Translations under genes and position numbers: made by a program | Notes under the pieces: generated by a model | Told to the model about the DNA's origin: nothing | The model's input: the letters and a program-made list of their open reading frames with translations, nothing else | Databases searched by the model: none | Shown here: piece after piece, positions 6,732 through 32,085 of the stretch | How the letters are laid out: every line of letters starts with the position of its first letter | How positions within the stretch are numbered: the stretch's first letter is position 1 | Origin: an uncultured Acidobacteriota bacterium | GTDB taxonomy: Bacteria; Acidobacteriota; UBA4820; DSQY01 | Assembly (NCBI GenBank): GCA_963724125.1 | Contig: CAVRTJ010000011.1 | Span: 64,529 to 128,528 of the forward strand | Direction of reading: 5' to 3' | Length of the DNA: 64,000 nucleotides

Positions 6732-7364
6732 TCAACCGCCGGGGCAGGGCGTCAGGTTCCCAGGTAGGAATGAACGCCTCTTAGCCAGAGACGCGTGCCT
6801 TCTTACGGTCGTTTCGCGGATTGAGAGCAGCCCGGCGATTTCGGTGTCGTCGTGCCCGAGAATCTCTCTGAGGATGAAGACAACGCGCTGGCGGGGAGGC
6901 AGGACCTTAACCCACGAATACACCTTCTCGAGGCTGACGGGCGAGCCAAGAAGGTCGAGATCCGGGAGTTCGCTCGGGAGGTCCTCGAGGGAAACGTGGT
7001 CCCGCCTGCTTCGTCGGATGAACGTGTAGGCCCTTCTTACGGCGATCGTCTTGAGAAAGGGCAGGGGATCTTCTCCAGGGCGCAGTCTGGGCAGCGCCTT
7101 GTGAAACCTGAAGAATGTATCCTGGAGAATGTCTTCTACATCCTGGAAGCACGGGACTATCTGAAAGACGAGCCTGAAGACGGCTGGGTAGCAGGCGTTG
7201 AGAAGGCGGCTGAAAGCCGCTTGATCGCCGTTCCGGGCGGAGGCCAGATACTCGACGATTGCTGCGTCGTCGTGGGACTTTTCTTCAGGGGTCAAGGTCC
7301 CTCCGCTAGCCTTTCTATCCTCTGCAAAAACACGCGACCGTCCGTCCGGTTCCCGCGTCTCCAT
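6732..7364 (-). CDS. ECF (sigma-24 family) RNA polymerase sigma factor
   Basis: Region 2 ...AAFSRLLNACYPAVFRLVFQIV... and region 4 ...LPPRQRVVFILREILGHDDTEIAGLLSIRETTVRRHASLAKRR. No adjacent anti-sigma factor is evident. Confidence 0.8.
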   Translation of the reverse strand: METREPDGRSRVFAEDRKASGGTLTPEEKSHDDAAIVEYLASARNGDQAAFSRLLNACYPAVFRLVFQIVPCFQDVEDILQDTFFRFHKALPRLRPGEDPLPFLKTIAVRRAYTFIRRSRRDHVSLEDLPSELPDLDLLGSPVSLEKVYSWVKVLPPRQRVVFILREILGHDDTEIAGLLSIRETTVRRHASLAKRRSFLPGNLTPCPGG

Positions 7365-7394
7365 CGCAAAGTCCCGCCGGACAATCGAAAAGCG

Positions 7395-10300
7395 TTACGG
7401 AAGAACGTGCCAATTCCTGGTTGTTCGGTTGTAGCTCACGGTGACGGATCCTCCGTCACCGTTGACGATTCTGATGGAGACGTCCGTGTCGTGCGGAAAT
7501 ACCGCCTTGAGCGAAGCGCCACTTTTGAGAACGAGCTTGCCCGGGCTCTTGACCTTCACATTCGGCCACGGAGCGCCTCCCACGGTGACCGACGCGTCCT
7601 GGCTGAACCCGCTTCCCTTGAGAATGACTCGGAATGGACTCCTGCGCTTCTTGACGATCTGCACCGTGGGAGGAGCGCTTATTGTGATCGTCCCGCCTTT
7701 GGAGCACGTGGCGCCGGGCAGAGTGGCGGCCATGGACCAGCTGTAAGTTCCTACCGCCGAGTAGACGTGGGTCGCCGAGCCGCCGCCGGATAGGGGGGAC
7801 CCGTCACCGAAGTCCCATTCGTACGTGGGTTCTCCGGCGCAGTTCTGGGTGACCGCGGAGGCGGTGAAGGTCACGGTGTTCCCGATGGCAGCCGCCTGCG
7901 GTGCCTGGGCCGTGCAGGACAGCGTGCAGGGAAGATCAGTGGGTGTCGCCGAGACGACAGGACCGGGGGCGCCCTCGAAGCCCTCCCCGTCTATGCTCGT
8001 CACCACGTAGTCGTAGGTTGTGCCGTTCTGGAGCCCCGCGTCTTCGTAGGTGTCCGCCGAACCGGGAACCGTGGCGATGAACGTCCAGATTCCGCCGCCG
8101 TCGTCAGAGCGATAAACGGCATACTGGGACACCAGGTCCGGCGAAGGGGACCAGAAAAGGCCGACGGCTGAGTTCCCCGCCTGGGCCCGGGGCGAGAGGG
8201 GCGCCTTGGGCGCGGGCATTCGCAGGCGCATCGAGGGATCGCCGAGCAGCACGTTTCCGTCGACGATTCTGGGGGTGGTCGAAGGGGACGCGAACCGGCC
8301 GGCTTCGACCAGGTCGCCCGAGTCTCCGGATTTTTTCAAAGCCGAACGCCTGGCCGAAGACGGCGTCGTTGAACGTTTCTTCTTCGTCGGGGTAGGCGAT
8401 GGTGGAGAAGCCGCAGGAGCCTATGGAGCCCCTGTCGGGGCGGTTGATCGAGCGTCTTCCATGAGCGCGGGATCCCCGACTTCGTCGAATGCCGAATTGT
8501 AACAGCTGCTGTTGACGACGAACGGCAGCGGGACGGACGAGGCCGTGACGGTCGGCAAGCAGGTCTACGTCGGAGTCCTCGCATGTCCCCGATGCGCAGT
8601 TTCGCGACTGGAAAGGCCGTGAAAATCGCATAGTCGGTTTCCCCAGAACGAAACGCCGCTGTGCCCGTCGTAGTGGACCAGGACGGCCTGGTTCCAATCC
8701 GCCCTGATGTCAGATGCACAGGCGTCGGCGTCCGTTCCGTTATAAGGGGGATCGTGGAAGTAGACGTGAAGGTCCTGCCACGGTGGAAGCGTGTAGGTGG
8801 TGCGCAGGTAGTCGTTGTAGGTCTCGAAAACCTGCTCCCACGCACTCGTGTAGGTGTCCGCCACGAATAGTCCCGTCTTGTACCAGTTTCCACTTAACGA
8901 TTGGTCCTCGTAATCCATGATCTTGGTCAGGACACCCGCCAGTTCATCGTAGGACCGCACGGGTAGCCTGCCGACCGCCATGTCCGGGTACCCGTCGCCA
9001 TTCACGTCCGCAAACCAGGCGTCCGAGGGGTAGCGCCCCATGTAGGTACTGTCCGACGTGTCCTCGAACATCATGGTGGGCACCCAGTCCTTGAACGTGG
9101 AATCCTGCATATAGTTCTTGTAGTCGTACGAGGCGTCGCCTATGAGGAGCACGTACTTCGGGACGGGATTCCAGTTCGCGGCGGCGGCCGTCAGGAAGGA
9201 CCGGATGGCTGTGGGGTCGAAGATGCCGTAGGAATAATTGTCGTAGATATCCTGGATGTCCACGACCTTCACGGACATTTCGGATGAGCGCCTGGCGAGG
9301 TAGGCCTGCCAGACGGCGTCGTTCCCGGCGGGGTGAAAATCCGGGTGGGTGATGATGAGCAAATCGGCTCCCAGCGAAGGGGCCGATAGGTCCGGGGGCG
9401 TGACCGTCTGCGCGTCGTCCGGGGAGAAGGGGACTGCTCGATCAGAAAGACACGGCGCGCCGATCACGGACGGATCGGCGGCCATCTGGAACGTGGCCAC
9501 CCCGTCCGAGAAGTCCGCTCCAATTAACAACGTGGGGATCTTTAGTCCCGTCTCGGCATCGCTCTTGGACAGGTCCAGGATGTAAGGGGCCGAGGCGTAG
9601 CCGGCGCTTGAATACTGGGCATTCTGATTCGGGGCGGTAAAAAGGAGCGTTCCCGAATCGGCGTCGAAGGTCCGGGTGTAGGTCACGTTGAAGTAGTCCG
9701 GAATCTGGTAATCTCCGCAGATGCCGGTATGGTTAGTGAGAGCGCGTTTCCGGCAGGTGAAGGCGGGCCGTCGAAGGTCCAGTCGAAGGTGGCGAGGGCC
9801 TTGCCCGTCCACGTGGCGGGATCGGGACCGGAAGACGGAGATGCGCCGTTCAGCGTGGCCTGCAGGGTGTGTGTGCCGTCTGTAAAACTGGCCATGAGGG
9901 CATCGACCGTGCACACCCGTTCCCGGCCGCGGGGTGGGGAAGCACAAGAGTGTATGTCCCTGGCTGAGGTCGAGGCCGAGAGAACGGGTCCCCAGAACCA
10001 GAGGTCGCCATCGGGACGCAGGTGGTAGATGCAGTAGAAGAAGTCGTTCTTCTCGAAGTGCACCGTCGCGTCGAAGCTCGTCTTCTCGGGATACCCTGAG
10101 ACGGGAGCGGCGTCCGCGGATGTCATTCGCAGACCCGGGCTGGAATCTTCGTAGAGCCAGTAGACTGGGTATCGGTGAAAGTCGCCGCCATTGAAGACGG
10201 GGCGGTCCTTCACGTCCATCTTCTGGCCGTAGAAGACGATGGCGTTGCCCGGCGCCGAAGGACCCCGTCTGCGGCCCTTCGATGACGATGGGAATCTCGA

Positions 10301-11031
10301 TGCCCCGGCACATCAGGTGCAGGTTCGCGGGATCGATTCCGTCGACGGGGAAATCCGTGATCGACAAGGTAGGCGTAATCGAGGCGGTAGAGGCCGTCCC
10401 TTGAGACTTTGATCCGGAGCTTGGGCGCCGCCGGCGCGTAGGCGATCACGGGATTCAGCTGGACTGCGGGGGACGATTGTGGGACGGACGGGCGATGCCG
10501 GGGCGATTCCCGCATCTTCGGGATTGAGAAAAAGGTCCGCACCGGCGGGACGGGTGCATCCGCCCGTCGCGCCCGTCTTTCGAACCTTGATCCAGGCCGG
10601 GAACTTCGACCCGGACCGTGAGGCTCGTCAACAGAGAGGCCGTGCCGCCCGTATCGCCGGCCTTGAGCGGATAGATGAGGATCTCCTGGAAATCCGTCGC
10701 CCGCCACCTGCCTCGCGTGCCGAGGACCACCGCGGATCCGGTCCGGCACGGGAGAGTGCCGGCGATAATCGGCGTCCAGCTCTCGGCGACAACCCGAACC
10801 GTAGGCTGTCCCGCCCCGGGGGGAAGCGCCACCTTGAGAGAAACCACGGGCGGGCGGGTGCGATGTTCCTGGACTCTCCGGGGAGGTCCAGGCCGCTATC
10901 TGTCCCGCGTCGGGGCTCCAGCGGACGAGAAGGCCGCCATCCGTGCGGACGGCCGTCGAGGCGGCGCATACCGCGTTACCCGCACAAGCCAGGATGACGA
11001 TGATGATCCATGCAGAGAGACTGCGCCTCAT
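7395..11031 (-). CDS. Secreted gingipain-like cysteine peptidase (peptidase C25) with FN3, PKD and a C-terminal IPT-like domain; at least 5 frameshifts
   Basis: Signal peptide MRRSLSAWIIIVILACAGNAVCAAS from the ATG at 11031. C25 N-terminal and catalytic region: ...LLIITHPDFHPAGN...KVVDIQDIYDNYSYGIFDPTAIRSFLTAAAANWNPVPKYVLLIGDASYDYKN...MAVGRLPVRSYDEL...AVLVHYDGHSGVSFWGN. FN3: LFWSPSPDLVSQYAVYRSDDGGGIWTF...YDYVVTSID. PKD: YEWDFGDGS...THVYSAVGTY. The C-terminal roughly 85 aa is shared with the protein at 30030..31745. Pieces lie in ORFs 10210..11220, 10455..10847, 9683..10219, 8565..10367, 8104..8697 and 7395..8339. Confidence 0.7.
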
Positions 11032-11164
11032 GGCTACATGATAGGAGGAAAGACGGTGAAAAACAACGGCGCGGAATGGCCAATGAAAGACGTCGAAGCA
11101 ATTGATTGAGGACTGCGTGGGAGACAAAGCGAGACTCGTGGGAGATCCTGTGATGTTGCCTCTA

Positions 11165-11290
11165 TCAGCTGACGTAAGGACCCGAACCGCAACTGGGGCT
11201 TCCGCTTCCGGCTTTTGCACAGGATCCCGCCTTGGCCTCGATCTTTTCCTTGTAAACGACTGCGGGCTTCTCGTATTTCTTCTTCTTCAT
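11165..11290 (-). CDS. Candidate RiPP precursor peptide, 41 aa: MKKKKYEKPAVVYKEKIEAKAGSCAKAGSGSPSCGSGPYVS
   Basis: Not in the ORF track (too short). Reverse complement of 11165-11290 translates cleanly ATG to TGA. SD-like GGAGAGAGGGA sits 5 nt upstream of the ATG. It begins 54 nt downstream of the radical SAM/SPASM gene stop, in the same direction and frame. The N-terminal half is Lys-rich and leader-like. The C-terminal half is a Gly/Ser-rich core with two Cys. Confidence 0.55.
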   Translation of the reverse strand: MKKKKYEKPAVVYKEKIEAKAGSCAKAGSGSPSCGSGPYVS

Positions 11291-11344
11291 CAATCCCTCT
11301 CTCCAGGAGCCAGCATCTAATATACGGGGCGGCCGCTCATGGTG

Positions 11345-12457
11345 TCAACCATTTCTCCGTATGGGAACTAAGTTCACAGTGCTTCGCCCCGTCAAAGTCT
11401 TCTCGTCGTCCGCGACCCGTTTACGGATCTTCGCGATTCGGAGGTACTGCTCGTCGGGCCGCATGGGGTCGCCGTTCCTGAGCTGGGAGAGGCCCGGGCA
11501 GGAAAAGCAGAAAGCGTGATCGTCGACCGTCCTCTTGATGGCGGCCGGCAGGTTGCGGTTGACCTCTCGCACCTTCTCGAGGAGAGGGGAGTTCTGCCAG
11601 ATATCGGCGATCCTGTGGTCGCGCACGTTCCCGATGGACTCCTTCCACTGGGTGCACGGCTGGATGTCGCCGGTAGGGCGTGATGTGGATGGTGCCCGTG
11701 CCGACCGTGCAGTTGAATTGGCCCGGCTCACGCTCGAAGGGGGAATTGCCGATATCTAGTCCCGAGGCGCTGTAGAGACTGCCGGATGGTCTCATCGGAG
11801 GCCATGAGGTCGAGCGGGTACTCCTGACCGTCGTCCGAAATGGTCAGATACCGGGTCGAAAAAGACGGGAAAGTCGAACCGGTCGCCGATGGCCTTGATC
11901 TGTTCGAGCTGGTCTTCCACCAGCCGGGTGACCACGCACTTGAGGTAGACCCTTAGGTGCCGTTCCTTCAAGAGGGCCAGCGCCTTCATCTGGCGTTCGA
12001 AAGACCCCTTGGACTGGGTCAGCGCTTCGGCGGTTGCCGCGTCGGCCCCGTGCAGGGAGAGTTCGATGCAGTTGGGCGCCAGCTCTTCCAGCCGGTCGGC
12101 CACGCGCTCCGTGATCGATGCGCCGTTCGTGAATATCCTCAGGGCGAAGGATCGGTCCTTGGCGGCGTTTGCGATGTCCCAGAACCTTGGGTGGACAAGG
12201 GCCTCTCCGCCGGTCAGCGTGAGGTAGAGGACGCCCATGTCCCTGAGCTGGTCCATCACGTCCACGACCTCCTCGAAGGTCAGGGGAGGCGAGGCCGGTT
12301 CGGGCGGGGGGGCGATCCGGGCCTGGTTCTTCCGCTGGACCGGGTTGTAGCAGAAGCGGCAGGCCAGGTTGCAGGCGTAGGTCAGTTCGATGGAGGCGAA
12401 GATCGGATGGGCCTTGTGGATCGCCTTCCCGAAAAGTTCAGCCAGAGGTGAATCCAT
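11345..12457 (-). CDS. Radical SAM / SPASM-domain peptide-modifying enzyme (two frameshifts)
   Basis: N-terminus MDSPLAELF...IELTYACNLACRFCYNP (CxxxCxxC). Middle frame ...DIGNSPFEREPGQFNCTVGTGTIHITPY. Third frame ...GDIQPCTQWKESIGNVRDHRIADIWQNSPLLEKVREVN...HAFCFSCPG gives the SPASM auxiliary-cluster cysteines. Covered by ORFs 11792..12457, 11421..11795 and 11345..11731. Confidence 0.75.
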
Positions 12458-12459
12458 GC

Positions 12460-12732
12460 TCAGTCCGCATCCTTGAGGAGGGCTCCCGACGCAAGCATTT
12501 CGGCCACGAAGGTCCTGGCGTCGGCCAGCGCTTCATCGAAGGTAACCTCGTAGGTCTCCGCGATATTTCCCGCGATGTCTTCGAGCGCTTCTTCGGCGTG
12601 TTCCCAGACGAAGGTCCCGATCTCGTTCAGGACCTGCACTTCGCCTTCCCGGTTGAAAATGAGGACGGCCTGGCCTTCGATCGTGCGCCAGGACACGTCC
12701 GGGTTCCTCTTGAGCTTCAGGGGCTCATCCAT
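12460..12732 (-). CDS. PqqD-family peptide chaperone (RiPP recognition element)
   Basis: 90 aa: ...VSWRTIEGQAVLIFNREGEVQVLNEIGTFVWEHAEEALEDIAGNIAETYEVTFDEALADARTFVAEMLASGALL. Its stop ATGA-overlaps the rSAM start. Its start overlaps the upstream kinase stop. Confidence 0.75.
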   Translation of the reverse strand: MDEPLKLKRNPDVSWRTIEGQAVLIFNREGEVQVLNEIGTFVWEHAEEALEDIAGNIAETYEVTFDEALADARTFVAEMLASGALLKDAD

Positions 12733-13612
12733 TGCGGTCCTCCCGGTCTACGGCCCCCCAGAAGGAGGCCGCCTTGCGGAAGTATAACGTCTTCGGCGGG
12801 ACTGAGCGACAGCAGGCCTGGACGAGAGGCGCCAGCCTGTCGGCGCGGGCCGCCGGATCGGCGACAAAGGGGCAACAGGCCAATACCTGCACCATGGCCA
12901 CGGCAGGCGGCAGGCTCTCTACCCCGTCCTCCATCGCCTGGCTCAGTCTGTAAAGTCCCCTCAAGGGGTAGGTGCCGCGCTCTTTGATTCGCTGCGGAAA
13001 GCTTCCTGCAAAGGGCGTCGTGGACGCCAGCCAGCGTCCGGATTCCCGGGTGACGAGCACGAGATCGTCCGACAGGACGGCACAACCCGGGCTGAAGGCC
13101 ACAACCGTCGATTTGCCCGCTCCGGACGGGCCGAAGAAGAGGAAGGCCCGGCCGTCGCGGACGACGCCCGCGGCGTGCAGGACGAAGCCCCCGTAGTCGA
13201 GGGCCAGGTCGGCGATGATCCACCGGAGATAATTCTCCATGGCTCTCAGTGAGACCTTCGTGTCACAGGAGTGGGAGAGGCGGAGAAGGCCCTTCGCACC
13301 TTGCCGAAAGGCTGCGAAATCGTGCGAAAGCAGGCGCCTGCCTTCTCCCAAAGGGGTGTCCTCGAGACGTAAGAAATGATCTTCCGCGGGCTGGAGGTAG
13401 GAAGGCGCGCCGGCCGTTATGCGGACTGTGTGGAGCGGCGTGGCTTCGGACAGGAAAGGCCCGTATTGCTGGAGGGCGGCGTTGTGAATGGTCTCGTCGA
13501 GTCCCGCAAAACAAACGGCCAGGCGGCCTACCTCGACAACGAGGTTCAGGCCGCCCGGCGTGGAAAGGTCTTCCGCAAAGTGGTCGAGCGCGGGACGGTA
13601 GTCCACGGGCAA
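12725..13612 (-). CDS. HprK-related (HPr kinase C-terminal-like) P-loop kinase
   Basis: 295 aa with ...GGFVLHAAGVVRDGRAFLFFGPSGAGKSTVVAFSPGCAVLSDDLVLV..., a Walker A loop in the HprK_C-like arrangement. It is the first gene of the kinase-PqqD-rSAM-peptide unit. Confidence 0.55.
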   Translation of the reverse strand: MPVDYRPALDHFAEDLSTPGGLNLVVEVGRLAVCFAGLDETIHNAALQQYGPFLSEATPLHTVRITAGAPSYLQPAEDHFLRLEDTPLGEGRRLLSHDFAAFRQGAKGLLRLSHSCDTKVSLRAMENYLRWIIADLALDYGGFVLHAAGVVRDGRAFLFFGPSGAGKSTVVAFSPGCAVLSDDLVLVTRESGRWLASTTPFAGSFPQRIKERGTYPLRGLYRLSQAMEDGVESLPPAVAMVQVLACCPFVADPAARADRLAPLVQACCRSVPPKTLYFRKAASFWGAVDREDRNG

Positions 13613-13666
13613 TCGGTCTCCTGTGCCTGAGACAGGGCTCGAAGCCGTGTCTCAGAACGCGAGCGG

Positions 13667-14182
13667 CTACCTCTCCCGGATTCTCGGAGGACGTTGCAGG
13701 TCGGAGGTGGGGGGCGTCGCTCCGCCCTCGTGCTCCGATGCCGTCCTGGAATCCCCGGACGAGACCGCCACGAGATCGAGTTCGGGGAAGAAGAAGCCCA
13801 CTTCCCTCTGCGCGTTCTCAGGGCTGTCGGAACCGTGGATCGCGTTTCGCTGGATGTCCGTCCCGAACAAGCCGCGGACGGTGTCCGCAGGGGCCTTGGT
13901 CGAATCCGTGGGTCCCATGACTTCGCGCAAACGGGCCACCGCGTTTTCTCGCTCCAGACACGCGGCGACGATGGGCCCGGAGGTCATGAATGCGACCAAC
14001 TCGGCGAAAAAGGGCCTCTCCCTGTGAACCGCGTAGAAAGCTTGTGCCTGCTCAACCGTCAGGTGCAGCATCCGCAGGCCTCTCACGACGAAACCCTCGC
14101 CGAGCAGGTGTTGGAGCATGTGGCCGTATGCCTTGTTTTCCACGGCGTCGGGTTTGAATAGGGTCAAGGTCCTTTCGATCAT
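13667..14182 (-). CDS. ndk: Nucleoside diphosphate kinase (C-terminus extended about 30 aa, possibly by frameshift)
   Basis: MIERTLTLFKPDAVENKAYGHMLQHLLGEGFVVRGLRMLHLTVEQAQAFYAVHRERPFF...NAIHGSDSPENAQREVGFFFPELDLV. Confidence 0.85.
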   Translation of the reverse strand: MIERTLTLFKPDAVENKAYGHMLQHLLGEGFVVRGLRMLHLTVEQAQAFYAVHRERPFFAELVAFMTSGPIVAACLERENAVARLREVMGPTDSTKAPADTVRGLFGTDIQRNAIHGSDSPENAQREVGFFFPELDLVAVSSGDSRTASEHEGGATPPTSDLQRPPRIRER

Positions 14183-14195
14183 GATTCGTCGGTCC

Positions 14196-14765
14196 TCACT
14201 TTCCCAGGAGCGCGGCCCCGTATTCGTGCGCCGCTTCTCGGCCGAGCCGCAGGGCCTTCTTGTTCAGTTCCTCGGTGCCCTTCGGGACCCTGCCCATGAC
14301 GGCCTTTTCGAGGGCCTCCGGGGAAACCACCGTGGTGAGTTCGCATATCAGGCCCAGGGCGACGATGTTGGCCACGAACTCTCTTCCCACCTCCTCGCGG
14401 GCGATGCGGGTGATGGGGGCCTTCACGAAACGCAGGCCTTCGGGCATTTCCGTGGGCACGAGGTCGCTGTCGGCGATCACGAGCGCCGATTTCGGCACGT
14501 CCTTGAGATACTTCGCGGCCGCTGCTTCGGTCATCAGAAGCATGAGGTCGATCTTGGTCGCCTTGGGGTAGTCGATCTCTTCGTCCGACAGGATGATCTC
14601 GCTCTTGCTCGCGCCGCCGCGGGATTCGGGCCCGTACGACTGGCTCTGCACGGCGTTCTTGCCTTCGAAAATGGCAGCCTCCGCCAGGATGACGCCGCCG
14701 AGCACGAGACCCTGTCCGCCGGATCCCGCCAATCTTATTTCATATCGCTTGCCCATGAGTACCAC
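14196..14765 (-). CDS. korC: 2-oxoacid:ferredoxin oxidoreductase gamma subunit
   Basis: 189 aa: ...EIRLAGSGGQGLVLGGVILAEAAIFEGKNAVQSQSYGPESRGGASKSEI.... Confidence 0.8.
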   Translation of the reverse strand: MVLMGKRYEIRLAGSGGQGLVLGGVILAEAAIFEGKNAVQSQSYGPESRGGASKSEIILSDEEIDYPKATKIDLMLLMTEAAAAKYLKDVPKSALVIADSDLVPTEMPEGLRFVKAPITRIAREEVGREFVANIVALGLICELTTVVSPEALEKAVMGRVPKGTEELNKKALRLGREAAHEYGAALLGK

Positions 14766-14876
14766 TCCTTAGTCAGCTCCTTACCCTGCGTCGGCATGCG
14801 TGACGCCTGGACAGGCAAGTCCGAGGCGTCCACGCGCTTTCCGCACGGTCCCGCTTGAGCGGGATGGCCGGGTTGC

Positions 14877-15716
14877 TCACACGTTGGCCGCGGCCTTGGT
14901 CTCCTGCGGGCGAACGCGCTCGATCAGCTTGTCGTACTCCTCGCAGAACTCGGGGCGCGTAGCCTGGTAGAGAACACCCACGGGATACTTGCCCTCTTTC
15001 TCCTCCTCGGAGAGTTTATCGGAAAGCCGCACGTTGTAGGTCATGCCCTTGTAGCGCTGCATCATGTCCGTGGCGTCCCCCCACTTGTTCTGGCGTCCGA
15101 AGTACGTCGTGCACTGGGACCAGGCGTCCACGACGGAGAATCCCTTGTTCTTGAGGGAAGCGAGGATGACGCGGTCCATGGCCACGGCGTCCATGTCGAG
15201 AGCACGTCCCACGAAGGTGGCGCCGGCGCCCTGGGCGAGCCCGCACACGTCGAAAGGTCGTTCGATCGCGCCGTAAGGTGCAGTCGTTCCGCGGGAGCCC
15301 GTGAAGGTCGTGGGCGACGCCTGTCCGCCCGTCATGCCGTAGATGTTGTTGTTGAAGACGATCAGGCTGATCTCGATGTTGCGCCTGCAGGCGTGGATGA
15401 AGTGGTTCCCGCCGATGGCCATGGCGTCGCCGTCGCCGGACACGACGATCACGTGGAGCTTCGGGTTGGCGACCTTGACGCCCGTGGCGAAGGGGAGCGC
15501 GCGCCCGTGGGTCGTGTGGAGCGTGTTGAAATCCAGGTAACCCGGCGTGCGGCTGGAGCAGCCGATGCCGCTCACGACGACCACGTCGTCCTTGTTCCAC
15601 TGGAGCTTATCGATGGCGCGCAGGATGGACTTCATGATGGTGCCGTGGCCGCAGCCGGGGCACCAGATGTGCGGCATCTTGTCCTTGCGCAGGTATTCGA
15701 AATAATCCATGGACAT
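14877..15716 (-). CDS. korB: 2-oxoacid:ferredoxin oxidoreductase beta subunit (TPP-binding)
   Basis: ...IWCPGCGHGTI...VVVSGIGCSSR...VSGDGDAMAIGGNHFIHACRRN.... Confidence 0.85.
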   Translation of the reverse strand: MSMDYFEYLRKDKMPHIWCPGCGHGTIMKSILRAIDKLQWNKDDVVVVSGIGCSSRTPGYLDFNTLHTTHGRALPFATGVKVANPKLHVIVVSGDGDAMAIGGNHFIHACRRNIEISLIVFNNNIYGMTGGQASPTTFTGSRGTTAPYGAIERPFDVCGLAQGAGATFVGRALDMDAVAMDRVILASLKNKGFSVVDAWSQCTTYFGRQNKWGDATDMMQRYKGMTYNVRLSDKLSEEEKEGKYPVGVLYQATRPEFCEEYDKLIERVRPQETKAAANV

Positions 15717-15719
15717 GGC

Positions 15720-16856
15720 TCAGTCTCCCATTATGGCGGAGAGGATGAGAGAAGGCTGGATGGGCTCGCCGTTGACCCTGTTCAGGCCTTCGACGGGAAT
15801 GGCCTTCCCGAGCACCCGTTCCACTTCGAGCTTGTATTGGCCGAGGTTCATTTCCGGCACGATGACCTTCTTGGCGTGCGCCGCCGCCGCCAGGATCTGC
15901 TTCTCGGGCAGAGGGAAGAGCGTGATCGGCCTGAAGAGTCCGGCCTTGACGCCTTTTTCCCGCGCTTCTTCGACGGCCCTCTTGGCGGAGCGTGACGTCG
16001 AGCCGTAGGCCACGACCAGCACTTCCGCGTCGTCGGTCCGGTGGTTCTCGACGAGTGTCAGTTCGTCGATGTGCTTGTCGACCTTGTCCAGCAGGCGACG
16101 GTTTCCCGACTCCAGGAGTTCGGGATTGCCCGTCGGGAAACCGGTCTTGTCGTGGTTGAGGCCCGTGACGTGGAAACGGGCGCCCTCGCCGTAATTCATC
16201 ATGGGCGGGATGAGATTCTCGGTTGTCTCGTAAGGATAGTAGGTGTCGCCGGGCTTGAAGGAAGGCTTGTGCCTGTTCTCGATCTTGATCTCGGAGGCCG
16301 GCGGGATCACCAGCTTCTCGCGCATGTGCGCGACGACCTCGTCGATGGCCAGAACCACGCACGTGCGCATCTTTTCCGCGAAGTTGAAGGCGTGCACCGT
16401 CGTGTCGAAGACCTCCCTGATCGTCGCGGGCGACAACACCACGGCCGGATGGTCGCCGTGCGTCCCCCAGCGCGTCTGGAGCACATCAGACTGGGATGGT
16501 CCCGTCGGGTTACCCGTGGATGGTCCGCCGCGCATGACGTTGACCACCACGCAAGGCACTTCGGCCATCATGGCGAAACCGATGTTCTCCTGCATGAGGG
16601 AGAATCCCGGTCCGGACGTGGCGGTCATGGCCTTCTGTCCCGCCAGGCTGGCGCCGATGATTGCGCCGATGGAGGCCAGTTCGTCCTCCATCTGAATGAA
16701 CTTGCCGCCCAGTTTCGGAAGGCGCCCGGACATCTTCTCGGCGATTTCAGAAGAGGGAGAGATGGGGTAGCCGGCGAAGAAACGGCAGCCGACTGCAAGC
16801 GCGCCCTCTACGCAGGCTTCGTTTCCTGCAAGGAACTTGATATTGGGGGTTGTCAT
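15720..16856 (-). CDS. korA: 2-oxoacid:ferredoxin oxidoreductase alpha subunit
   Basis: 378 aa: ...GNEACVEGALAVGCRFFAGYPISPSSEIAE...TATSGPGFSLMQENIGFAMMAEVPCVVVNVMRGGPSTG.... Confidence 0.85.
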   Translation of the reverse strand: MTTPNIKFLAGNEACVEGALAVGCRFFAGYPISPSSEIAEKMSGRLPKLGGKFIQMEDELASIGAIIGASLAGQKAMTATSGPGFSLMQENIGFAMMAEVPCVVVNVMRGGPSTGNPTGPSQSDVLQTRWGTHGDHPAVVLSPATIREVFDTTVHAFNFAEKMRTCVVLAIDEVVAHMREKLVIPPASEIKIENRHKPSFKPGDTYYPYETTENLIPPMMNYGEGARFHVTGLNHDKTGFPTGNPELLESGNRRLLDKVDKHIDELTLVENHRTDDAEVLVVAYGSTSRSAKRAVEEAREKGVKAGLFRPITLFPLPEKQILAAAAHAKKVIVPEMNLGQYKLEVERVLGKAIPVEGLNRVNGEPIQPSLILSAIMGD

Positions 16857-16867
16857 GGTTTTAATCC

Positions 16868-17179
16868 TCAGTCAACAAATATGGCGAAATCGGGACACCG
16901 GATCTCGCAGAGCATGCACTTGGTACAGGCGTCGGCGTCCACCACCTCGGCGTGGCGAAAGCCCATGCCCAGGACCTTTTCGGGGCATAGCGCGACGCAG
17001 ATATTGCAAAGGCTGCCTTTGCAGTGGCCGGGGATGACTGTAATCTGGAGGTCCTTCTTGACCTTTCGGCCGTGGCCGGATACGGCAATTTTGTCCTTGT
17101 GGATATCCTTGAGGCGCGGCGAGCCGACATCGGCCCCCTCCTCCAGGGTGCCGCTGTGGCGTTCGAGAGTGGTTGGCAT
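16868..17179 (-). CDS. korD: 2-oxoacid:ferredoxin oxidoreductase delta subunit (2x[4Fe-4S] ferredoxin)
   Basis: Two CxxCxxCxxxCP motifs (CKGSLCNICVALCP, CTKCMLCEIRCP). The D-A-B-C gene order matches OorDABC/KorDABC, and sucCD is adjacent. That favours 2-oxoglutarate as substrate, with pyruvate not excluded. Confidence 0.7.
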   Translation of the reverse strand: MPTTLERHSGTLEEGADVGSPRLKDIHKDKIAVSGHGRKVKKDLQITVIPGHCKGSLCNICVALCPEKVLGMGFRHAEVVDADACTKCMLCEIRCPDFAIFVD

Positions 17180-17239
17180 GGTCTATCTCCTCACTGTGGG
17201 CCGCATGCGTCCGGCTGGGCCCCGGAGCCGTTTGGAACG

Positions 17240-17272
17240 TAAACAGGGTGGGTAACCGCAGCTACCCACCCC
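17240..17272 (-). terminator. Putative intrinsic terminator between sucD and korD
   Basis: Minus strand reads GGGTGGGTA-GCTGCGGT-TACCCACCC (9-bp perfect stem) followed by UGUUUACGUU. Moderate support; the U-tract is short. Confidence 0.35.
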
Positions 17273-17306
17273 AAGGTTCCTAAATATAACTCCCGTCCTT
17301 GATTTT

Positions 17307-18182
17307 TCAAGCTTTCAGGGCCTTCTGCATGGCGTCGCCGATCTCGGTGGGCGATTTGACCACGGTTGCGCCGGCCTCGGCCAGGGCGGCCATCTTTTCG
17401 GCGGCCGTGCCCTTGCCGCCGGCGATGATGGCGCCGGCGTGGCCCATGCGGCGTCCCGGAGGCGCCGTCTGCCCGGCGATGAAGGCCACCACCGGTTTCG
17501 TCATCGTGTTCTTGATGTAGGCCGCGGCCTCCTCCTCTGACGTACCGCCGATCTCGCCGATGAGGACAACGCCTTCGGTGGCCGGGTCGGCGTTGAAGAG
17601 TTCGAGCGCGTCCACGTGGGTCGTTCCCGGGACGGGATCGCCGCCGATTCCGATGCATGTGGTTTCGCCGAGGCCGGACTCGGTCAACTGCCACACGGCC
17701 TCGTAGGTGAGGGTGCCGGAGCGGGAGATGACGCCCACGCGCCCGGGCTTGTGGATGTAGCCGGGCATGATGCCCATCTTGCATTCTCCTGGCGTGATGA
17801 TGCCGGGGCAGTTCGGCCCGATGAGGCGGGTCTTCGTCCCGCACAGGGCTGCTTTCACGCGGGCCTCGTCTTTGGCCGGAATTCCCTCGGTGATGCAGAC
17901 CACCGTGCCGACGCCGGCCGCGGCCGCCTCCAGGATCGCATCCGCCGCGAAGGGCGGCGGGACGAAAATGAGGGCGGCATCGACGCCCTGCTGTTTGACC
18001 GCCTCCGCGACCGTATCGTAAACGGGGACCTTGTCGTCCCAGGACGTTCCGCCCTTTCCGGGCGTGACGCCGGCCACGATCTTGGTTCCATATTCCAGGC
18101 ACTGGCGGGCGTGGAAGGAGCCTTCCTTGCCTGTGATTCCCTGGACCACAACGCGTGTCTCTTTATTAACAAGTATGCTCAT
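17307..18182 (-). CDS. sucD: Succinyl-CoA synthetase alpha subunit
   Basis: [27 protein letters not shown]...[14 protein letters not shown]...GIGGDP.... Confidence 0.9.
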
Positions 18183-18189
18183 GACGCCC

Positions 18190-19368
18190 TCACTTTACGG
18201 AGGCCACGGCCATCTGAGCCGCTTCCTTCAGGTTGTTGGCCACGGCGAACTCCAAGCCGGAGTCCCTGAGCATGGCCTTTCCTTTGTCCACGTTGGTCCC
18301 CTGCAGGCGGACCACGACGGGCAGGCTCACGCCGATTTCCTTTGCGGCGGCGATGACGCCCTCGGCGATTACGTCGCAGCGCACGATGCCGCCGAAGATG
18401 TTGATCAGAACCGCCTTGACGTGCTTATCCGAAAGGAGGATCTCGAAGGCGTGCTTCACGCGTTCGGTAGTGGCGCCGCCGCCCACGTCCAGGAAGTTGG
18501 CGGGCTCGCCGCCTTCGAGTTTGATGACGTCCATGGTGGCCATCGCAAGACCGGCGCCGTTGACCATGCAACCGATGTTGCCGTCGAGGCGGATGTAGTT
18601 GAGGTCGAACTTGCTGGCCTCGGTCTCCAGGGGGTCTTCCTCGGAAAGGTCCCGCATCTCGAGGACGTCGGGATGCCTGTGCATGGCGCTGTCGTCGAAG
18701 TTCATCTTTGCGTCGAGCGCCAGGACGTGGCCGTCGTCCGAGAGGATGAGGGGGTTGATTTCCGTGAGGGTGGCGTCCGTTTCCTCGTGGGCTTTGTACA
18801 GCGCCATGACCAGCTTGACGCACTCCTTGAAGGCCTGGCCCTTAAAGCCGAGTCCGAAGGCGACCTGCCTGGCGTGGAAAGGTTGGATGCCCAGCAGGGG
18901 GTCGACCCACACCTTCAGGATCTTCTCGGGTGTCTCTGCGGCGACCTTCTCGATCTCGACACCGCCCTCGGTGGAAAACATGATCGCGTTGCTCTGTTTC
19001 GACCGGTCGAGTACGATCCCCAGGTAGTATTCCTTGGCGATGGTGCTTGCTTCGGTGACGTAGACCTTCTGGACTTCCTTGCCCTCCGGGCCGGTCTGGT
19101 GGGTCACGAGGGTGTTGCCGAGCATCTTCTTTGCGAACTCGGCGGCCTCGTCCGCCGTCGGGGCGAGCTTCACACCGCCCTTGAAGCCGTCGGTGAATGT
19201 ACCCTTGCCCCGGCCTCCGGCGTGGATCTGGGCCTTGATGACCACCGTCCCGCCAAGTTCCTTGGCGATCGCGTAGGCCTGCTCCGCCGAGAAGGCGACC
19301 TTCCCCCGCGGCACGGCTACGCCGTAGCGAGTGAGTATTTCCTTGGCCTGATATTCGTGAACTTTCAC
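18190..19368 (-). CDS. sucC: Succinyl-CoA synthetase beta subunit (GTG start; the 623-aa track ORF has a spurious N-terminal extension)
   Basis: AGGAGACTTACA-GTG-AAAGTTCACGAATATCAG gives (M)[21 protein letters not shown]..., ending ...AQMAVASVK. Confidence 0.85.
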
Positions 19369-19653
19369 TGTAAGTCTCCTGAAAAACAGCCAGTTGGAAG
19401 TGTTAGTGGGAACCCCCTGTAAAAAGGTCAAAAGTATTTCACAATCACGGGGTTGTGTCAATGAGACGGGATCGGTAATTGCGTGCTTTCTGCGTGCGCC
19501 CCACGGCGCTAAAATCTGCTTCGAGAACCGGGGTTCCTCACGCTGCGGCCCACCGGCCGGCATCGCCGGCATCTTCCTGATTGCCGTCTGCGGCCTTCCC
19601 AGATCGGCGAGCTCGAACTCCTGTCTCTGAACGGCCCCTACCAGCTTAACAGG

Positions 19654-29175: not shown

Positions 29176-29973
29176 ATGGACTGGACGTGTGAATGTGGAA
29201 CGCAGAATCCGGACGGGACGAAGTTCTGCAACCAGTGCGGAGCGCCGAGGCCGCCCGTTCACCCCCCCAAGAACACTCCGTCCGTTCCGGCCGCTCCGCC
29301 GAAGGAGTCCGCGGCGAAGGCAATCCCCCCGCCGGAACCGCCTCAATCGGGCCCTGGCGGTCCTTCCGCGGGGTCCACCGGTCCGTCCGGGGCGGGAAGC
29401 GTTTCCCGGATCCCACCGGCCACCGTTCCTCCGCCGGCGGGACAGGGCGTACCCAAGAAGAAGGGCAAGGGCTGCCTGTTGTGGACCGTCGTGATCCTCG
29501 CCGTCCTCCTCGTCTTTTGCCTGATCGCGGCGGCGGTCGGCTATTTCGTCGTATGGCCGAAACTCAAGGGGAGCAACAGGATCAAACAGGCCACCGCAGT
29601 GGCCGAAATGACCAAGATTTCGGTCGCTTTGGAAAGGTACAAGACCTCGAGCGGCGCATATCCCTCTCCCGGTCACAACCCAGACAGTTACTACAGTATC
29701 GTCGACCTGGGAAAGCTCGCCCCGCAACTGGCCCCGGCTTACCTCAAGACGGTGCCTCTGGATCCCTGGGGCCACCCCTACGAATACGGTACCAGCCCGG
29801 ACGACGGCTCATACGTGCTGATATGTAGCGGATCGGATGGGGTCAATTCACTGGAACAGATCCCCGCCGAGCCCAAGGACACACATTGTTACGAGGACGA
29901 GATAGTCCTGGAAAATGGTGCCTTCATGCAGAAGCCGGGCGGCAGACAGGAGTCTTGTTCCAAAGGCGGTTGA
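29176..29973 (+). CDS. Zinc-ribbon / Pro-rich linker / TM helix / GspG-like (type II secretion pseudopilin core) fusion protein
   Basis: N-terminus DWTCECGTQNPDGTKFCNQCGAP (zinc_ribbon_2-like). Pro/Ser-rich linker. TM helix LLWTVVILAVLLVFCLIAAAVGYFVVW. Then a pseudopilin-like globular domain ATAVAEMTKISVALERYKTSSGAYPS...LAPAYLKTVPLDPWGHPYEY...YVLICSGSDGV. No prepilin (G/FTLIE) leader. Confidence 0.65.
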   Translation: MDWTCECGTQNPDGTKFCNQCGAPRPPVHPPKNTPSVPAAPPKESAAKAIPPPEPPQSGPGGPSAGSTGPSGAGSVSRIPPATVPPPAGQGVPKKKGKGCLLWTVVILAVLLVFCLIAAAVGYFVVWPKLKGSNRIKQATAVAEMTKISVALERYKTSSGAYPSPGHNPDSYYSIVDLGKLAPQLAPAYLKTVPLDPWGHPYEYGTSPDDGSYVLICSGSDGVNSLEQIPAEPKDTHCYEDEIVLENGAFMQKPGGRQESCSKGG

Positions 29974-30029
29974 AGGCTCTGGGGTTTGTCGGACCACGCC
30001 ATGCCCCGGGCAGCGAGGAGGTTTGCGGA

Positions 30030-31745: not shown

Positions 31746-32085
31746 CAGGCTGCCTGGGCGTTCGGCAGGTCCCCTCTATCTCGATACCCTGATCACCCAC
31801 CGCTATCGGTATCGGGTCTCGGTATCGCCATCGAAGTCGATTTCCGGATCCCCCGTTCTCCGGCCGGCCTTTGTATGGCTTCTGCGAGGCCCTCTTTGAA
31901 AGGCCGGGAGAGTCCGGGCGATCTCGGGCGATGGGCGGTGGCAAGCCCGGGCTAGGGATGCGATCCCGATTCCGATCCCGATTTCAATTGCCGCAACGTA
32001 AATTCTGGGGGATCCGGTGTGCCGGTGCAGTTAGATTTTTCGGCAGTTTAGTCTTATAATCTAGGGCTTTAGGAGGCCCGATAGT

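What the first reader, a model, noticed from the sequence alone, without database searches (positions are those of the whole stretch)
11165..13612. Compact kinase / PqqD / radical SAM-SPASM cassette ending in an unannotated Cys/Gly/Ser-rich peptide: candidate undescribed RiPP-like system
Four co-directional, translationally coupled genes on the minus strand:
- An HprK_C-like P-loop kinase (GPSGAGKST).
- A PqqD-family RRE. Its 8-nt start overlaps the kinase stop.
- A radical SAM/SPASM enzyme (CNLACRFC plus SPASM cysteines). Its start ATGA-overlaps the PqqD stop.
- 54 nt further on, a 41-aa ORF with a strong SD and a Lys-rich leader plus a two-Cys core (SCAKAGSGSPSCGSGPYVS).

An RRE plus SPASM maturase is the hallmark of sacti-/ranthipeptide-type maturation. 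A dedicated HprK-like kinase in the same unit is unusual and suggests additional phosphorylation-dependent chemistry or regulation. The precursor is absent from the ORF track.
Basis: partly seen in the sequence, partly recalled or inferred. Interest (0 to 1): 0.85.

Follow-up and report, generated by a model that had tools for sequence, protein, structure and literature searches.

The report
Kinase–radical SAM peptide cassette with C25 protease
This is one copy (damaged in this assembly) of a widespread but unstudied gene set that appears to make a small chemically modified peptide, using a peptide-binding chaperone, a radical SAM enzyme, a serine-kinase-like enzyme and a large secreted cysteine protease.

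Summary
The four co-directional genes are real, and the 41-aa ORF is a genuine, conserved precursor gene. Across 80 related loci, 46 carry kinase+PqqD+rSAM and 41 of those also carry a matching peptide. The hosts are Acidobacteriota, Chloroflexota, KSB1, Zixibacteria and Competibacteraceae.

The peptide family has at least 95 clusters at 50% identity. It has:
- a lasso-like YxxPx[V/I] leader motif at a fixed distance (18 residues) from the first Cys;
- as a rule two Cys;
- a C-terminal Ser in nearly all members.

- The rSAM gene is broken here by three single-base insertions. These belong to a run of about 25 insertions at 7.3–11.85 kb and are probably an assembly defect.
- There is no ATGA overlap.
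- The "SPASM" domain has only four conserved Cys (Twitch-like; nearest solved relative SkfB).
- The kinase belongs to the catalogued Pfam ScmC family.
- A fifth partner was missed: a PorU-like Peptidase_C25 gene lies next to the cassette in 41 of 46 loci.

Best model:
- the RRE binds the leader;
- the rSAM cross-links via the Cys;
- the HprK-like kinase phosphorylates the C-terminal Ser, as lasso-peptide kinases do;
- the C25 enzyme processes the product.

No curated family threshold is met, and I found no literature on it. I rate it a new variant of a known kind.

The parts
12725..13612 (-). ScmC-family, HprK/PEPCK-fold P-loop kinase-like protein (295 aa; TTG start preceded by AGGAGA)
   Evidence: ORF. 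NCBIfam ScmC 36 bits and HprK_rel_A 34 bits, both below cut-off. Pfam PF27840 ScmC is precomputed on the identical protein P0001 and on all listed homologues. AF2 model pLDDT 94. Foldseek matches ATP-PEPCK at 1.7e-7 and HprK/P (1ko7, 3tqf, 2qmh) at 1e-4 to 1e-3. Invariant H146, G161xSGxGK167, D182-D183 in 30 homologues.
12460..12732 (-). PqqD-family RiPP recognition element (90 aa); 8-nt overlap with the kinase stop
   Evidence: Pfam PqqD 45.7 bits against a cut-off of 23.4. Best NCBIfam matches are lasso PqqD chaperones, ScmD and GeoRSP PqqD, all below cut-off.
11345..12457 (-). Radical SAM enzyme with a Twitch-like auxiliary-cluster domain. Interrupted here by three 1-nt insertions (about 11848, 11779, 11669).
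   Evidence: Pfam Radical_SAM 88 bits on the N-terminal fragment and SPASM 30.7 bits on the C-terminal fragment. Frameshifts shown. The corrected ORF is 369 aa and 86-89% identical to intact homologues. Conserved Cys are CX3CX2C plus C-x17-C...C-x2-C in 43 homologues. Best PDB match is SkfB 6efn at 4.9e-17, followed by PqqE and BtrN.
11319..11348 (-). Sigma-70-like promoter (TTGACA-18-TATATT, 11/12) directly upstream of the precursor gene
   Evidence: 1 site found against 0.3 expected. A TTGACA box is visible in the 70 nt shown upstream of the precursor start in 9 of the 14 closer acidobacterial loci (L001-L021). The regex places one further upstream in 3 more, and 10 of the 14 have a full -35/-10 match.
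11165..11290 (-). Precursor peptide, 41 aa: MKKKKYEKPAVVYKEKIEAKAG / SCAKAGSGSPSCGSGPYVS (the leader/core split is inferred)
   Evidence: Y6, P9, A21, C24 and C34 are invariant. All 49 ORFs recovered by tblastn end in Ser. The single match in the window to the family motif is at this position.
7395..11031 (-). PorU-like Peptidase_C25 protein with signal peptide, fn3 and PKD domains (1207 aa in the intact orthologue). Broken by many 1-nt insertions in this window.
   Evidence: tblastn frames -2/-3/-1/-3. Pfam Peptidase_C25, and Propeptide_C25 on the L039 homologue. NCBIfam T9SS sortase PorU 207-271 bits against a cut-off of 420. PDB PorU 6za2 at 6e-10. The His/Cys dyad is conserved in 13 full-length homologues. 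It lies next to the cassette in 41 of 46 rSAM-bearing loci.

Best explanation
This is a ribosomal peptide-maturation (RiPP-type) module with five conserved parts. The steps below are marked as shown or inferred.

1. Shown: a precursor gene with its own promoter encodes a peptide with a conserved leader (YxxPx[V/I]...E-[A/S]-x-A) and a variable core. The core has two invariant Cys and a near-invariant C-terminal Ser.
2. Inferred: the stand-alone PqqD protein binds the YxxPx[V/I] leader motif, as lasso-peptide B1 RREs bind Tyr(-17)/Pro(-14)/Leu(-12). It presents the core to both enzymes.
3. Inferred: in that register the leader ends after residue 22. The invariant Ala21 sits at position -2 and the first Cys is core residue 2.
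4. Inferred: the rSAM enzyme has one Twitch-type auxiliary cluster and is related to SkfB. It uses the two Cys to install intramolecular thioether cross-link(s).
5. Inferred: the ScmC/HprK-like kinase O-phosphorylates the C-terminal Ser, as HPr-kinase homologues of lasso clusters do on their linear precursors.
6. Inferred, weakest step: the adjacent secreted PorU-like C25 cysteine peptidase acts on the product. It could remove the leader, by analogy to secreted LanP proteases, or carry out a sortase-like transfer.

In this assembly the rSAM and C25 genes carry single-base insertions. These most likely reflect local consensus error rather than decay.
For: **Conservation and co-occurrence**
- Of 80 ScmC-like loci, 46 have PqqD+rSAM.
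- Of those 46, 41 have a motif-matching peptide, 41 have a C25 gene within 5 kb, and 38 have both.
- Only kinase, rSAM, PqqD and C25 (plus an fn3-like protein) are conserved neighbours across phyla.

**Peptide family**
- Y6, P9, A21, C24 and C34 are invariant, and the Tyr-to-Cys1 spacing is fixed at 18 residues.
- All 49 ORFs recovered by tblastn end in Ser, although no constraint was placed on the C-terminus.
- Of 95 representative clusters, 85 end in Ser, 77 have exactly 2 Cys and 92 have YxxPx[VILM].
- Tandem precursor copies occur in several loci.
- The leader is conserved and the core is variable between the window and L001.

**RRE**
- The Pfam PqqD match is above threshold. The best NCBIfam neighbours are lasso PqqD chaperones.
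- The lasso leader motif Tyr(-17)/Pro(-14)/Leu(-12) and a small residue at -2 are documented in PMC10368454.

**Kinase**
- The confident AF2 model matches the PEPCK and HprK/P folds. The P-loop, His and Asp-Asp residues are invariant.
- HPr-kinase homologues phosphorylate the C-terminal Ser of linear lasso precursors (PMC8498205).
- A B1 RRE accelerates such a kinase (PMC10368454).

**rSAM**
- SkfB is the best solved relative, followed by PqqE and BtrN.
- Exactly 3+4 Cys are conserved.

**C25 protein**
- The His/Cys dyad is conserved.
- PorU is the best match in both PDB and NCBIfam.
- The fn3-like module is a separate small protein in Chloroflexota. The N-terminally incomplete C25 ORFs of two Competibacteraceae loci begin with the same fn3-like motif.

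**Frameshifts**
- All are insertions, confined to 7312-11848, and not in homopolymers.
- The corrected rSAM matches intact homologues residue for residue through the shifted segment.
Against: - No chemistry has been observed. Thioether formation and Ser phosphorylation rest on homology and analogy only.
- All curated NCBIfam matches are far below cut-off. No specific function can therefore be transferred.
- Pfam HprK_C does not hit the kinase, and PEPCK is a better structural match than HprK/P.
- No exporter is conserved near the cassette, yet the C25 protein carries a signal peptide. A direct peptide-C25 encounter is unexplained.
- The residue before the presumed cleavage site is not conserved between the acidobacterial ([K/R]-A-G) and Chloroflexota ([I/V]-A-G) precursors.
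- Three loci with all four proteins lack a recognisable precursor.
- In this window the rSAM and C25 genes are formally disrupted.
Confidence: 0.6

Rival explanations
1. The rSAM works on the C-terminus in the manner of MftC rather than making Cys thioethers. In that case the near-invariant C-terminal Ser is its target, for example by oxidative decarboxylation or C-C cross-linking. A peptidase, possibly the C25 enzyme, then releases a small peptide-derived cofactor or metabolite.
For: The best NCBIfam match of the intact rSAM is the mycofactocin maturase MftC, at 112-141 bits. MftC also works with a PqqD-family RRE on the last residues of its precursor (established knowledge). Many members share a conserved G-P-h-x-S C-terminus. 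No exporter is conserved, as in cofactor pathways.
Against: - The MftC score is far below its cut-off of 265.
- Only four C-terminal Cys are conserved, against the two auxiliary clusters of MftC.
- The two Cys of the core are invariant, which this model does not explain.
- The best solved relative is the thioether synthase SkfB.
- The penultimate residues vary.
Confidence: 0.1
2. The modified peptide is not a substrate of the C25 enzyme but its partner. It could be a cytoplasmic inhibitor or safeguard, as staphostatins are for staphopains. It could also be a cross-linked small subunit, as in the gamma subunit of quinohemoprotein amine dehydrogenase.
For: There is tight cross-phylum linkage of the cassette with an apparently active C25 peptidase. 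No exporter is conserved. Operon-encoded intracellular inhibitors of secreted cysteine proteases are an established precedent, as are rSAM-cross-linked small subunits.
Against: There is no direct evidence. The variable core between the Cys fits poorly with a conserved binding interface. The model does not explain the kinase or the C-terminal Ser.
Confidence: 0.12
3. The ScmC protein is not a Ser-OH kinase. It would use ATP for another step, such as phosphorylating the C-terminal carboxylate or another group to drive ligation or cyclisation. It could also phosphorylate Ser as a leaving group for elimination to dehydroalanine.
For: ATP-dependent PEPCK is a better structural match than HprK/P. 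Pfam HprK_C does not hit. A conserved Lys lies between the two Cys (C-x-K in many members) and could serve as a nucleophile.
Against: The His-15-P-loop and Asp-Asp arrangement is invariant and matches the HprK signature as I recall it. NCBIfam HprK-related kinase A/B models hit the core at 1e-8 to 1e-10. The one experimentally established RiPP precedent for this enzyme type is Ser/Thr O-phosphorylation, typically of a C-terminal Ser.
Confidence: 0.13
4. In this organism the cassette is a decaying pseudogene cluster and makes nothing.
For: The rSAM and C25 reading frames are interrupted. The truncated 221-aa rSAM fragment is what the public record holds (P0223).
Against: - There are about 25 indels, all insertions, all within 4.5 kb and none in the next 7.6 kb, and not in homopolymers.
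- Natural decay would give deletions as well.
- The shifted segments still translate, after correction, to sequence 88-89% identical and gap-free to intact homologues.
- The kinase, PqqD and peptide genes are intact.
Confidence: 0.2
5. The 41-aa ORF is a chance ORF in GC-rich DNA.
For: Many spurious ORFs exist in this 62% GC window.
Against: The ORF is conserved in position, leader sequence, Cys pattern and C-terminal Ser across phyla. It has its own promoter and Shine-Dalgarno sequence.
Confidence: 0.01

Closest known systems
SynChlorMet (SCM) cassette, NCBIfam TIGR04248-TIGR04251 (ScmC, ScmD, ScmE, ScmF); Pfam PF27840 ScmC
   Same: Both combine a ScmC-type P-loop protein, a PqqD-family protein and radical SAM enzyme(s) in one co-directional unit. 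The kinase here falls in Pfam ScmC. ScmC is its best NCBIfam match.
   Different: All four NCBIfam scores are far below cut-off: ScmC 36 against 125, ScmD 22 against 100, ScmE and ScmF 60-92 against 400. There is one rSAM instead of two, and it has four rather than seven C-terminal Cys. This cassette has a defined precursor family and a C25 partner. As far as I recall, no precursor was assigned to SCM; that is recollection, not a test.
Phosphorylated lasso peptides (paeninodin type; HPr-kinase homologue K, RRE B1)
   Same: Both have a YxxPx[L/V/I] leader motif with a small residue at -2, a stand-alone PqqD RRE, an HprK-like kinase and a C-terminal Ser on the precursor.
   Different: No lasso cyclase (C) or B2 protease was found among the conserved neighbours. 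An rSAM enzyme and a C25 peptidase take their place, and the core has two invariant Cys.
Sactipeptide/ranthipeptide maturases, especially SkfB (PDB 6efn)
   Same: Both are rSAM enzymes with CX3CX2C and a single-cluster Twitch-like C-terminal domain, acting on a Cys-containing peptide. SkfB is the best solved relative, at 4.9e-17 over residues 11-295.
   Different: NCBIfam rSAM_skfB scores 53-71 against a cut-off of 300. The RRE here is a separate protein rather than fused. The precursor is unrelated to SkfA. A kinase and a C25 partner are present.
Type IX secretion sortase PorU (Peptidase_C25; PDB 6za2)
   Same: PorU is the best PDB and NCBIfam match of the adjacent large protein. The protein has a C25 domain with a conserved His/Cys dyad, a propeptide domain and a signal peptide.
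   Different: The score of 207-271 is below the cut-off of 420. The hosts are mainly Acidobacteriota and Chloroflexota, which to my knowledge are not T9SS phyla. PorU is not known to be linked to an rSAM/PqqD/kinase cassette. One literature search found nothing relevant.
GeoRSP system and HprK-related kinase A/B (NCBIfam TIGR04302, TIGR04303, TIGR04352, TIGR04355)
   Same: Both pair a PqqD chaperone with an rSAM and, as I recall, HprK-related kinases in the neighbourhood. Weak hits to all of these models were found.
   Different: All scores are far below cut-off: 20 against 100, 65-79 against 400, and 25-38 against 200.

Membership tests
RRE-dependent radical SAM RiPP (sacti-/ranthipeptide-like) | Short precursor gene next to the maturase, with a conserved leader and a variable core | tested here: met
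RRE-dependent radical SAM RiPP (sacti-/ranthipeptide-like) | PqqD-like RiPP recognition element | tested here: met
   Pfam PF05402 scores 45.7 bits against a cut-off of 23.4
RRE-dependent radical SAM RiPP (sacti-/ranthipeptide-like) | Radical SAM core with CX3CX2C | tested here: met
   Pfam Radical_SAM scores 88 bits. The three Cys are invariant in 43 homologues. The gene is frameshifted in this window.
RRE-dependent radical SAM RiPP (sacti-/ranthipeptide-like) | Full SPASM domain (7-Cys motif, two auxiliary clusters) | tested here: not met
   Only four C-terminal Cys are conserved, C-x17-C...C-x2-C. The pattern is Twitch-like, as in SkfB and BtrN. The Pfam SPASM HMM still matches at 30.7 bits.
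RRE-dependent radical SAM RiPP (sacti-/ranthipeptide-like) | Cys-to-carbon thioether cross-links in the product | not testable with these tools
   Requires MS/NMR of the product
SynChlorMet cassette (NCBIfam) | ScmC equivalog score of at least 125 bits | tested here: not met
   36.1 bits
SynChlorMet cassette (NCBIfam) | ScmD (at least 100 bits) and two rSAM/SPASM proteins, ScmE and ScmF (at least 400 bits each) | tested here: not met
   ScmD scores 21.9 bits. There is a single rSAM, scoring 60-92 bits.
Pfam ScmC (PF27840) | Match to the family HMM | tested here: met
   A precomputed PF27840 hit is recorded on the identical protein P0001 and on all 120 listed homologues. The family is named ScmC. 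The local Pfam copy lacks this model.
HPr kinase/phosphorylase (Pfam HprK_C PF07475) | Match to HprK_C; HprK-type fold and catalytic motifs | tested here: inconclusive
   There is no Pfam HprK_C hit at E<=0.01. NCBIfam HprK-related A/B hit at 1e-8 to 1e-10, below cut-off. The fold matches HprK/P at 1e-4 to 1e-3, and PEPCK matches better.
Lasso peptide system with kinase | YxxPxL-type leader motif, and a C-terminal Ser on the precursor | tested here: met
   motif definition from PMC10368454 and PMC8498205
Lasso peptide system with kinase | Lasso cyclase (Asn-synthetase-like C) and B2 transglutaminase-like protease | tested here: not met
   Neither appears among the conserved neighbours of 39 loci. 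In the window the cassette is flanked by NDK and the C25 gene.
T9SS sortase PorU (NF033707) | Score of at least 420 bits | tested here: not met
   207 and 270.6 bits
Peptidase family C25 | Pfam Peptidase_C25 match and a catalytic His/Cys dyad | tested here: met
   276 bits on the L039 homologue and a precomputed hit on the L001 orthologue. The dyad is conserved in 13 full-length homologues. The window copy is frameshifted.
Mycofactocin system | MftC score of at least 265 bits; precursor ending in GVY | tested here: not met
   95-141 bits. The precursors end in Ser.
Anti-phage defence systems (PADLOC) | Match to a defence-system model beyond the generic rSAM core | tested here: not met
   Only weak pVip hits on the rSAM core. 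Nothing for the kinase, PqqD or C25.

The most novel reading that the evidence does not exclude
This would be a new RiPP class in which one PqqD chaperone serves two enzymes, a Twitch-type rSAM cross-linker and an HprK-type kinase that phosphorylates the near-invariant C-terminal Ser. A PorU-like C25 enzyme, a relative of a sortase, would then process the phosphorylated, cross-linked peptide outside the cell or transfer it to a cell-surface acceptor. That would link RiPP biosynthesis to sortase-like surface attachment in phyla that (to my knowledge) lack a type IX secretion system.
Probability: 0.15. Interest if true: 0.9.

Novelty: new variant of a known kind. Interest (0 to 1): 0.68.

Why it matters
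- It defines a precursor family for a ScmC-type kinase/PqqD/rSAM cassette. As far as I recall, these cassettes have been catalogued only as orphan enzyme sets. The near-invariant C-terminal Ser gives the kinase a concrete, testable substrate.
- It predicts a combination not reported in the searched literature: rSAM cross-linking plus Ser phosphorylation on one peptide, guided by a lasso-type leader.
- It ties that chemistry to a PorU-like cysteine peptidase in at least five bacterial lineages, most of them uncultured.
- If confirmed, it would add a new RiPP class.
- It would also suggest a function for PorU-like C25 proteins in Acidobacteriota and Chloroflexota.

Tried and rejected
- **Literature:** searches for SynChlorMet; ScmC + radical SAM; HPr kinase + radical SAM/PqqD/SPASM; HprK + RiPP; peptidase C25 + radical SAM + RiPP; and the peptide strings YEKPAV/YEKPQV/YEKPAI found nothing. 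PorU + radical SAM found one irrelevant paper.
- **Peptide families:** NCBIfam and Pfam scans of the peptide and of a Chloroflexota homologue returned no family.
- **Kinase in PDB:** a sequence search with the kinase profile gave only generic P-loop and PEPCK hits, so fold comparison was needed.
- **Defence systems:** PADLOC gave only generic rSAM-core hits.
- **Exact look-up:** the window's PqqD and kinase were not on record in the look-up of encoding contigs. Context came from the 81% relative instead.
- **Missing precursors:** none was found in L024, L029 or L079.
- **Other ScmC contexts:** L053 and L030 encode unannotated proteins and were not pursued.
- **tRNAs:** none in the window.
- **Gene call in L001:** the 44-aa gene called downstream of the rSAM is a different ORF, not the precursor.
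- **Rejected readings:** the idea that the ORF is a chance ORF, and the idea that the rSAM is a full SPASM enzyme.

Full report
**1. What is in the window**

Four co-directional genes lie on the minus strand between 11165 and 13612.
- The 295-aa P-loop protein (12725-13612) contains GPSGAGKST.
- The 90-aa PqqD protein (12460-12732) starts 8 nt before the kinase stop (ATGGATGA).
- The radical SAM gene starts at 12457, after a 2-nt spacer (TGA-GC-ATG). There is no ATGA overlap.
- A 41-aa ORF begins 54 nt after the rSAM stop, at the ATG at 11290, and ends at 11165. It is preceded by GGAGAGAGGG.
- Pfam confirms PqqD (45.7 bits against a cut-off of 23.4), Radical_SAM (88 bits) and a SPASM-HMM match (30.7 bits).

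The rSAM gene is not intact.
- Its product changes frame three times.
- Alignment to an 81%-related MAG locus shows three single-base insertions in the window, near 11848, 11779 and 11669. That locus is L001, from an uncultured Thermoanaerobaculia bacterium.
- Removing the three bases gives a 369-aa protein. It is 86% identical to the L001 orthologue and 88-89% identical, without gaps, to four other intact homologues.
- The three insertions belong to a run of about 25 indels between 7312 and 11848. All are insertions, and none lies in a homopolymer. The next 7.6 kb has none.
- The same run breaks the downstream gene.
- The truncated 221-aa fragment is what the public record holds.
- I favour a local consensus error over decay, but only read mapping can decide this.

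**2. The small ORF is a real precursor gene**

I scanned one genome per GTDB species with a profile of 30 kinase homologues. This gave 80 distinct loci.
- The loci come from Acidobacteriota/Thermoanaerobaculia and Chloroflexota (Anaerolineae, Ardenticatenaceae, Promineifilaceae). KSB1, Zixibacteria, Competibacteraceae and a deltaproteobacterium are also represented.
- tblastn with the window's proteins found PqqD+rSAM in 46 loci. A peptide homologue lies next to the rSAM in 41 of them, and some loci have two tandem copies.
- All 49 ORFs recovered by tblastn and extended to their stop codon end in Ser, and nearly all have exactly two Cys.
- In an alignment of 27 diverse members, Y6, P9, A21, C24 and C34 are invariant. 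The distance from Tyr to the first Cys is fixed at 18 residues. The sequence between and after the Cys varies in length and composition.
- A profile search of 1.84 billion representative proteins found 95 clusters. Of these, 92 have YxxPx[VILM], 77 have two Cys and 85 end in Ser. Most exceptions look like run-on or truncated gene calls.
- The window contains exactly one match to the family motif, at the reported position.
- An 11/12 sigma-70-like promoter (TTGACA-18-TATATT, 11348-11319) sits between the rSAM stop and the peptide start. One such site was found against 0.3 expected by chance.
- A -35/-10 pair is found upstream of the precursor in 10 of the 14 closer acidobacterial loci. A TTGACA box occurs in 12 of them.
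- No NCBIfam or Pfam model matches the peptides.

**3. The enzymes**

*Kinase*
- The best NCBIfam matches are ScmC (36 bits, cut-off 125), HprK-related kinase A (34 bits) and kinase B (25 bits; 38 bits for a Chloroflexota homologue).
- The precomputed Pfam annotation places the identical protein and all 120 listed homologues in PF27840, named ScmC.
- An AlphaFold model built on 30 homologues is confident, with pLDDT 94.
- Foldseek matches that model to ATP-dependent PEP carboxykinase (1.7e-7) and to HprK/P (1ko7, 3tqf, 2qmh; 1e-4 to 1e-3).
- H146, the P-loop G161-x-S-G-x-G-K167 and D182-D183 are invariant. From memory, the His 15 residues before the P-loop and the Asp-Asp after it mirror the HprK/P signature.

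*rSAM*
- All NCBIfam matches are far below cut-off. The best is MftC at 112 bits against a cut-off of 265.
- The best solved relative is the thioether synthase SkfB (6efn, 4.9e-17), followed by PqqE and the Twitch enzyme BtrN.
- Across 43 homologues the conserved Cys are CX3CX2C plus only four in the C-terminal domain, arranged C-x17-C...C-x2-C. That pattern indicates one auxiliary cluster of Twitch type, not a 7-Cys SPASM domain.

**4.

- The gene after the peptide (7395-11031, frameshifted here) is a 1207-aa protein in L001. It has a signal peptide and Peptidase_C25, fn3 and PKD domains.
- A homologous C25 gene lies within 5 kb of the cassette in 41 of the 46 rSAM-bearing loci. This holds in every phylum sampled and in several orientations.
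- An all-against-all comparison of neighbours in 39 loci was run. Only the kinase, rSAM, PqqD and this protein are conserved across phyla. A small fn3-like protein in Chloroflexota clusters with it.
- The best matches are the type IX secretion sortase PorU. NCBIfam gives 207-271 bits against a cut-off of 420, and PDB 6za2 matches at 6e-10.
- The catalytic His (G-H-[SAG]) and Cys ([TS]-C) are conserved in 13 full-length homologues.
- In Chloroflexota a membrane-anchored fn3-like protein of about 125 aa lies just upstream of the kinase. The N-terminally incomplete C25 ORFs of two Competibacteraceae loci begin with the same motif.
- No transporter is conserved.

**5. How it most likely works**

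Shown: the gene set, its co-occurrence, the peptide's invariant features, the fold and family relationships, and the precursor's own promoter.

Inferred:
- (a) The PqqD protein binds the YxxPx[V/I] motif. [quoted passage not shown] The same register here puts the invariant Ala21 at -2. The leader/core boundary then falls after residue 22, and the first Cys is core residue 2.
- (b) The kinase phosphorylates the C-terminal Ser. HPr-kinase homologues of lasso clusters do exactly this on linear precursors, and those precursors share little beyond a C-terminal Ser (PMC8498205). A B1 RRE accelerates such a kinase (PMC10368454).
- (c) The SkfB-like rSAM uses the two invariant Cys for thioether cross-links. 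The acceptor residues are unknown. A Lys between the Cys (C-x-K or N-G-K) is frequent.
- (d) The C25 enzyme processes the product. This is the weakest step. The enzyme is secreted, no exporter is linked, and the residue before the presumed cleavage site differs between clades.

Rivals, each listed with tests in the rival section:
- MftC-like chemistry at the C-terminus.
- The peptide as an inhibitor or subunit of the C25 enzyme.
- A non-kinase ATP-dependent role for ScmC.
- Real pseudogenisation in this genome.

**6. Comparison with known systems and novelty**

- The architecture resembles the in-silico SynChlorMet cassette and, as I recall, the GeoRSP/HprK-related-kinase neighbourhoods. Every curated threshold is missed by a wide margin, and there is one Twitch-type rSAM instead of two SPASM enzymes.
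- The leader motif, RRE, kinase and C-terminal Ser parallel phosphorylated lasso peptides. No lasso cyclase or B2 protease is present.
- PADLOC gives only generic rSAM-core hits.
- Nine full-text searches found no description of this cassette, of the peptide motif, or of a C25-rSAM link.
- I therefore rate it a new variant of a known kind, namely an RRE-dependent radical SAM RiPP system. It has two unusual additions, a kinase matched to a near-invariant C-terminal Ser and a PorU-like peptidase.
- Interest is fairly high for RiPP and radical SAM specialists. It is tempered by the fact that every chemical step is inferred and that this particular copy is damaged in the assembly.

Noticed in passing
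window 7312-11848: There is a run of about 21 single-base and 3 two-base insertions relative to the related MAG locus L001. All are insertions, none is in a homopolymer, and the adjacent 11850-19500 has none. The run breaks the rSAM and C25 genes. It looks like a locally unpolished stretch of the assembly.
   Followed up: partly
window 13500-19500 versus 11100-13500: The flanking housekeeping genes (2-oxoacid:ferredoxin oxidoreductase, succinyl-CoA ligase, NDK) are 93-99% identical at protein level to L001. The kinase and PqqD are only 81-82% identical, the corrected rSAM 86% and the peptide 66%. The cassette evolves much faster than its surroundings.
   Followed up: partly
window 13667-14182 (-): The nucleoside diphosphate kinase gene directly upstream of the cassette encodes 171 aa. 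It has an extra Pro/Arg/Ser-rich C-terminal tail of about 30 residues. The extension is also present in L001 (171 aa).
   Followed up: no
window 29886-31757 (+): A second ORF has weak similarity (33-38%) to the C-terminal fn3/PKD part of the C25 protein, but no C25 catalytic domain was detected.
   Followed up: no
L053:185-5516, L030:2917-4969: More distant ScmC-like kinases (28-42% identity) sit in different contexts that lack PqqD and rSAM. Their neighbours are large proteins with no Pfam match, so the ScmC family is used in at least one other unexplored system.
   Followed up: partly
L039:4549-4926, L062:4537-4932 and homologues: Chloroflexota loci carry a conserved protein of about 125 aa immediately upstream of the kinase. 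It has an N-terminal TM helix and an fn3-like domain (motif GFNLYRAD...GEF..IN) and matches no Pfam or NCBIfam model. The incomplete C25 ORFs of two Competibacteraceae loci begin with the same motif.
   Followed up: partly
L055 and L079, about 7150-7700: In the Competibacteraceae loci, the region just downstream of the rSAM looks by eye like a HicA/HicB toxin-antitoxin pair. I did not run a family search on it.
   Followed up: no
L001:8419-8553: The 44-aa gene called in the public annotation downstream of the rSAM is a hydrophobic ORF in another frame. The true precursor (L001:8321-8446) is not called there.
   Followed up: yes
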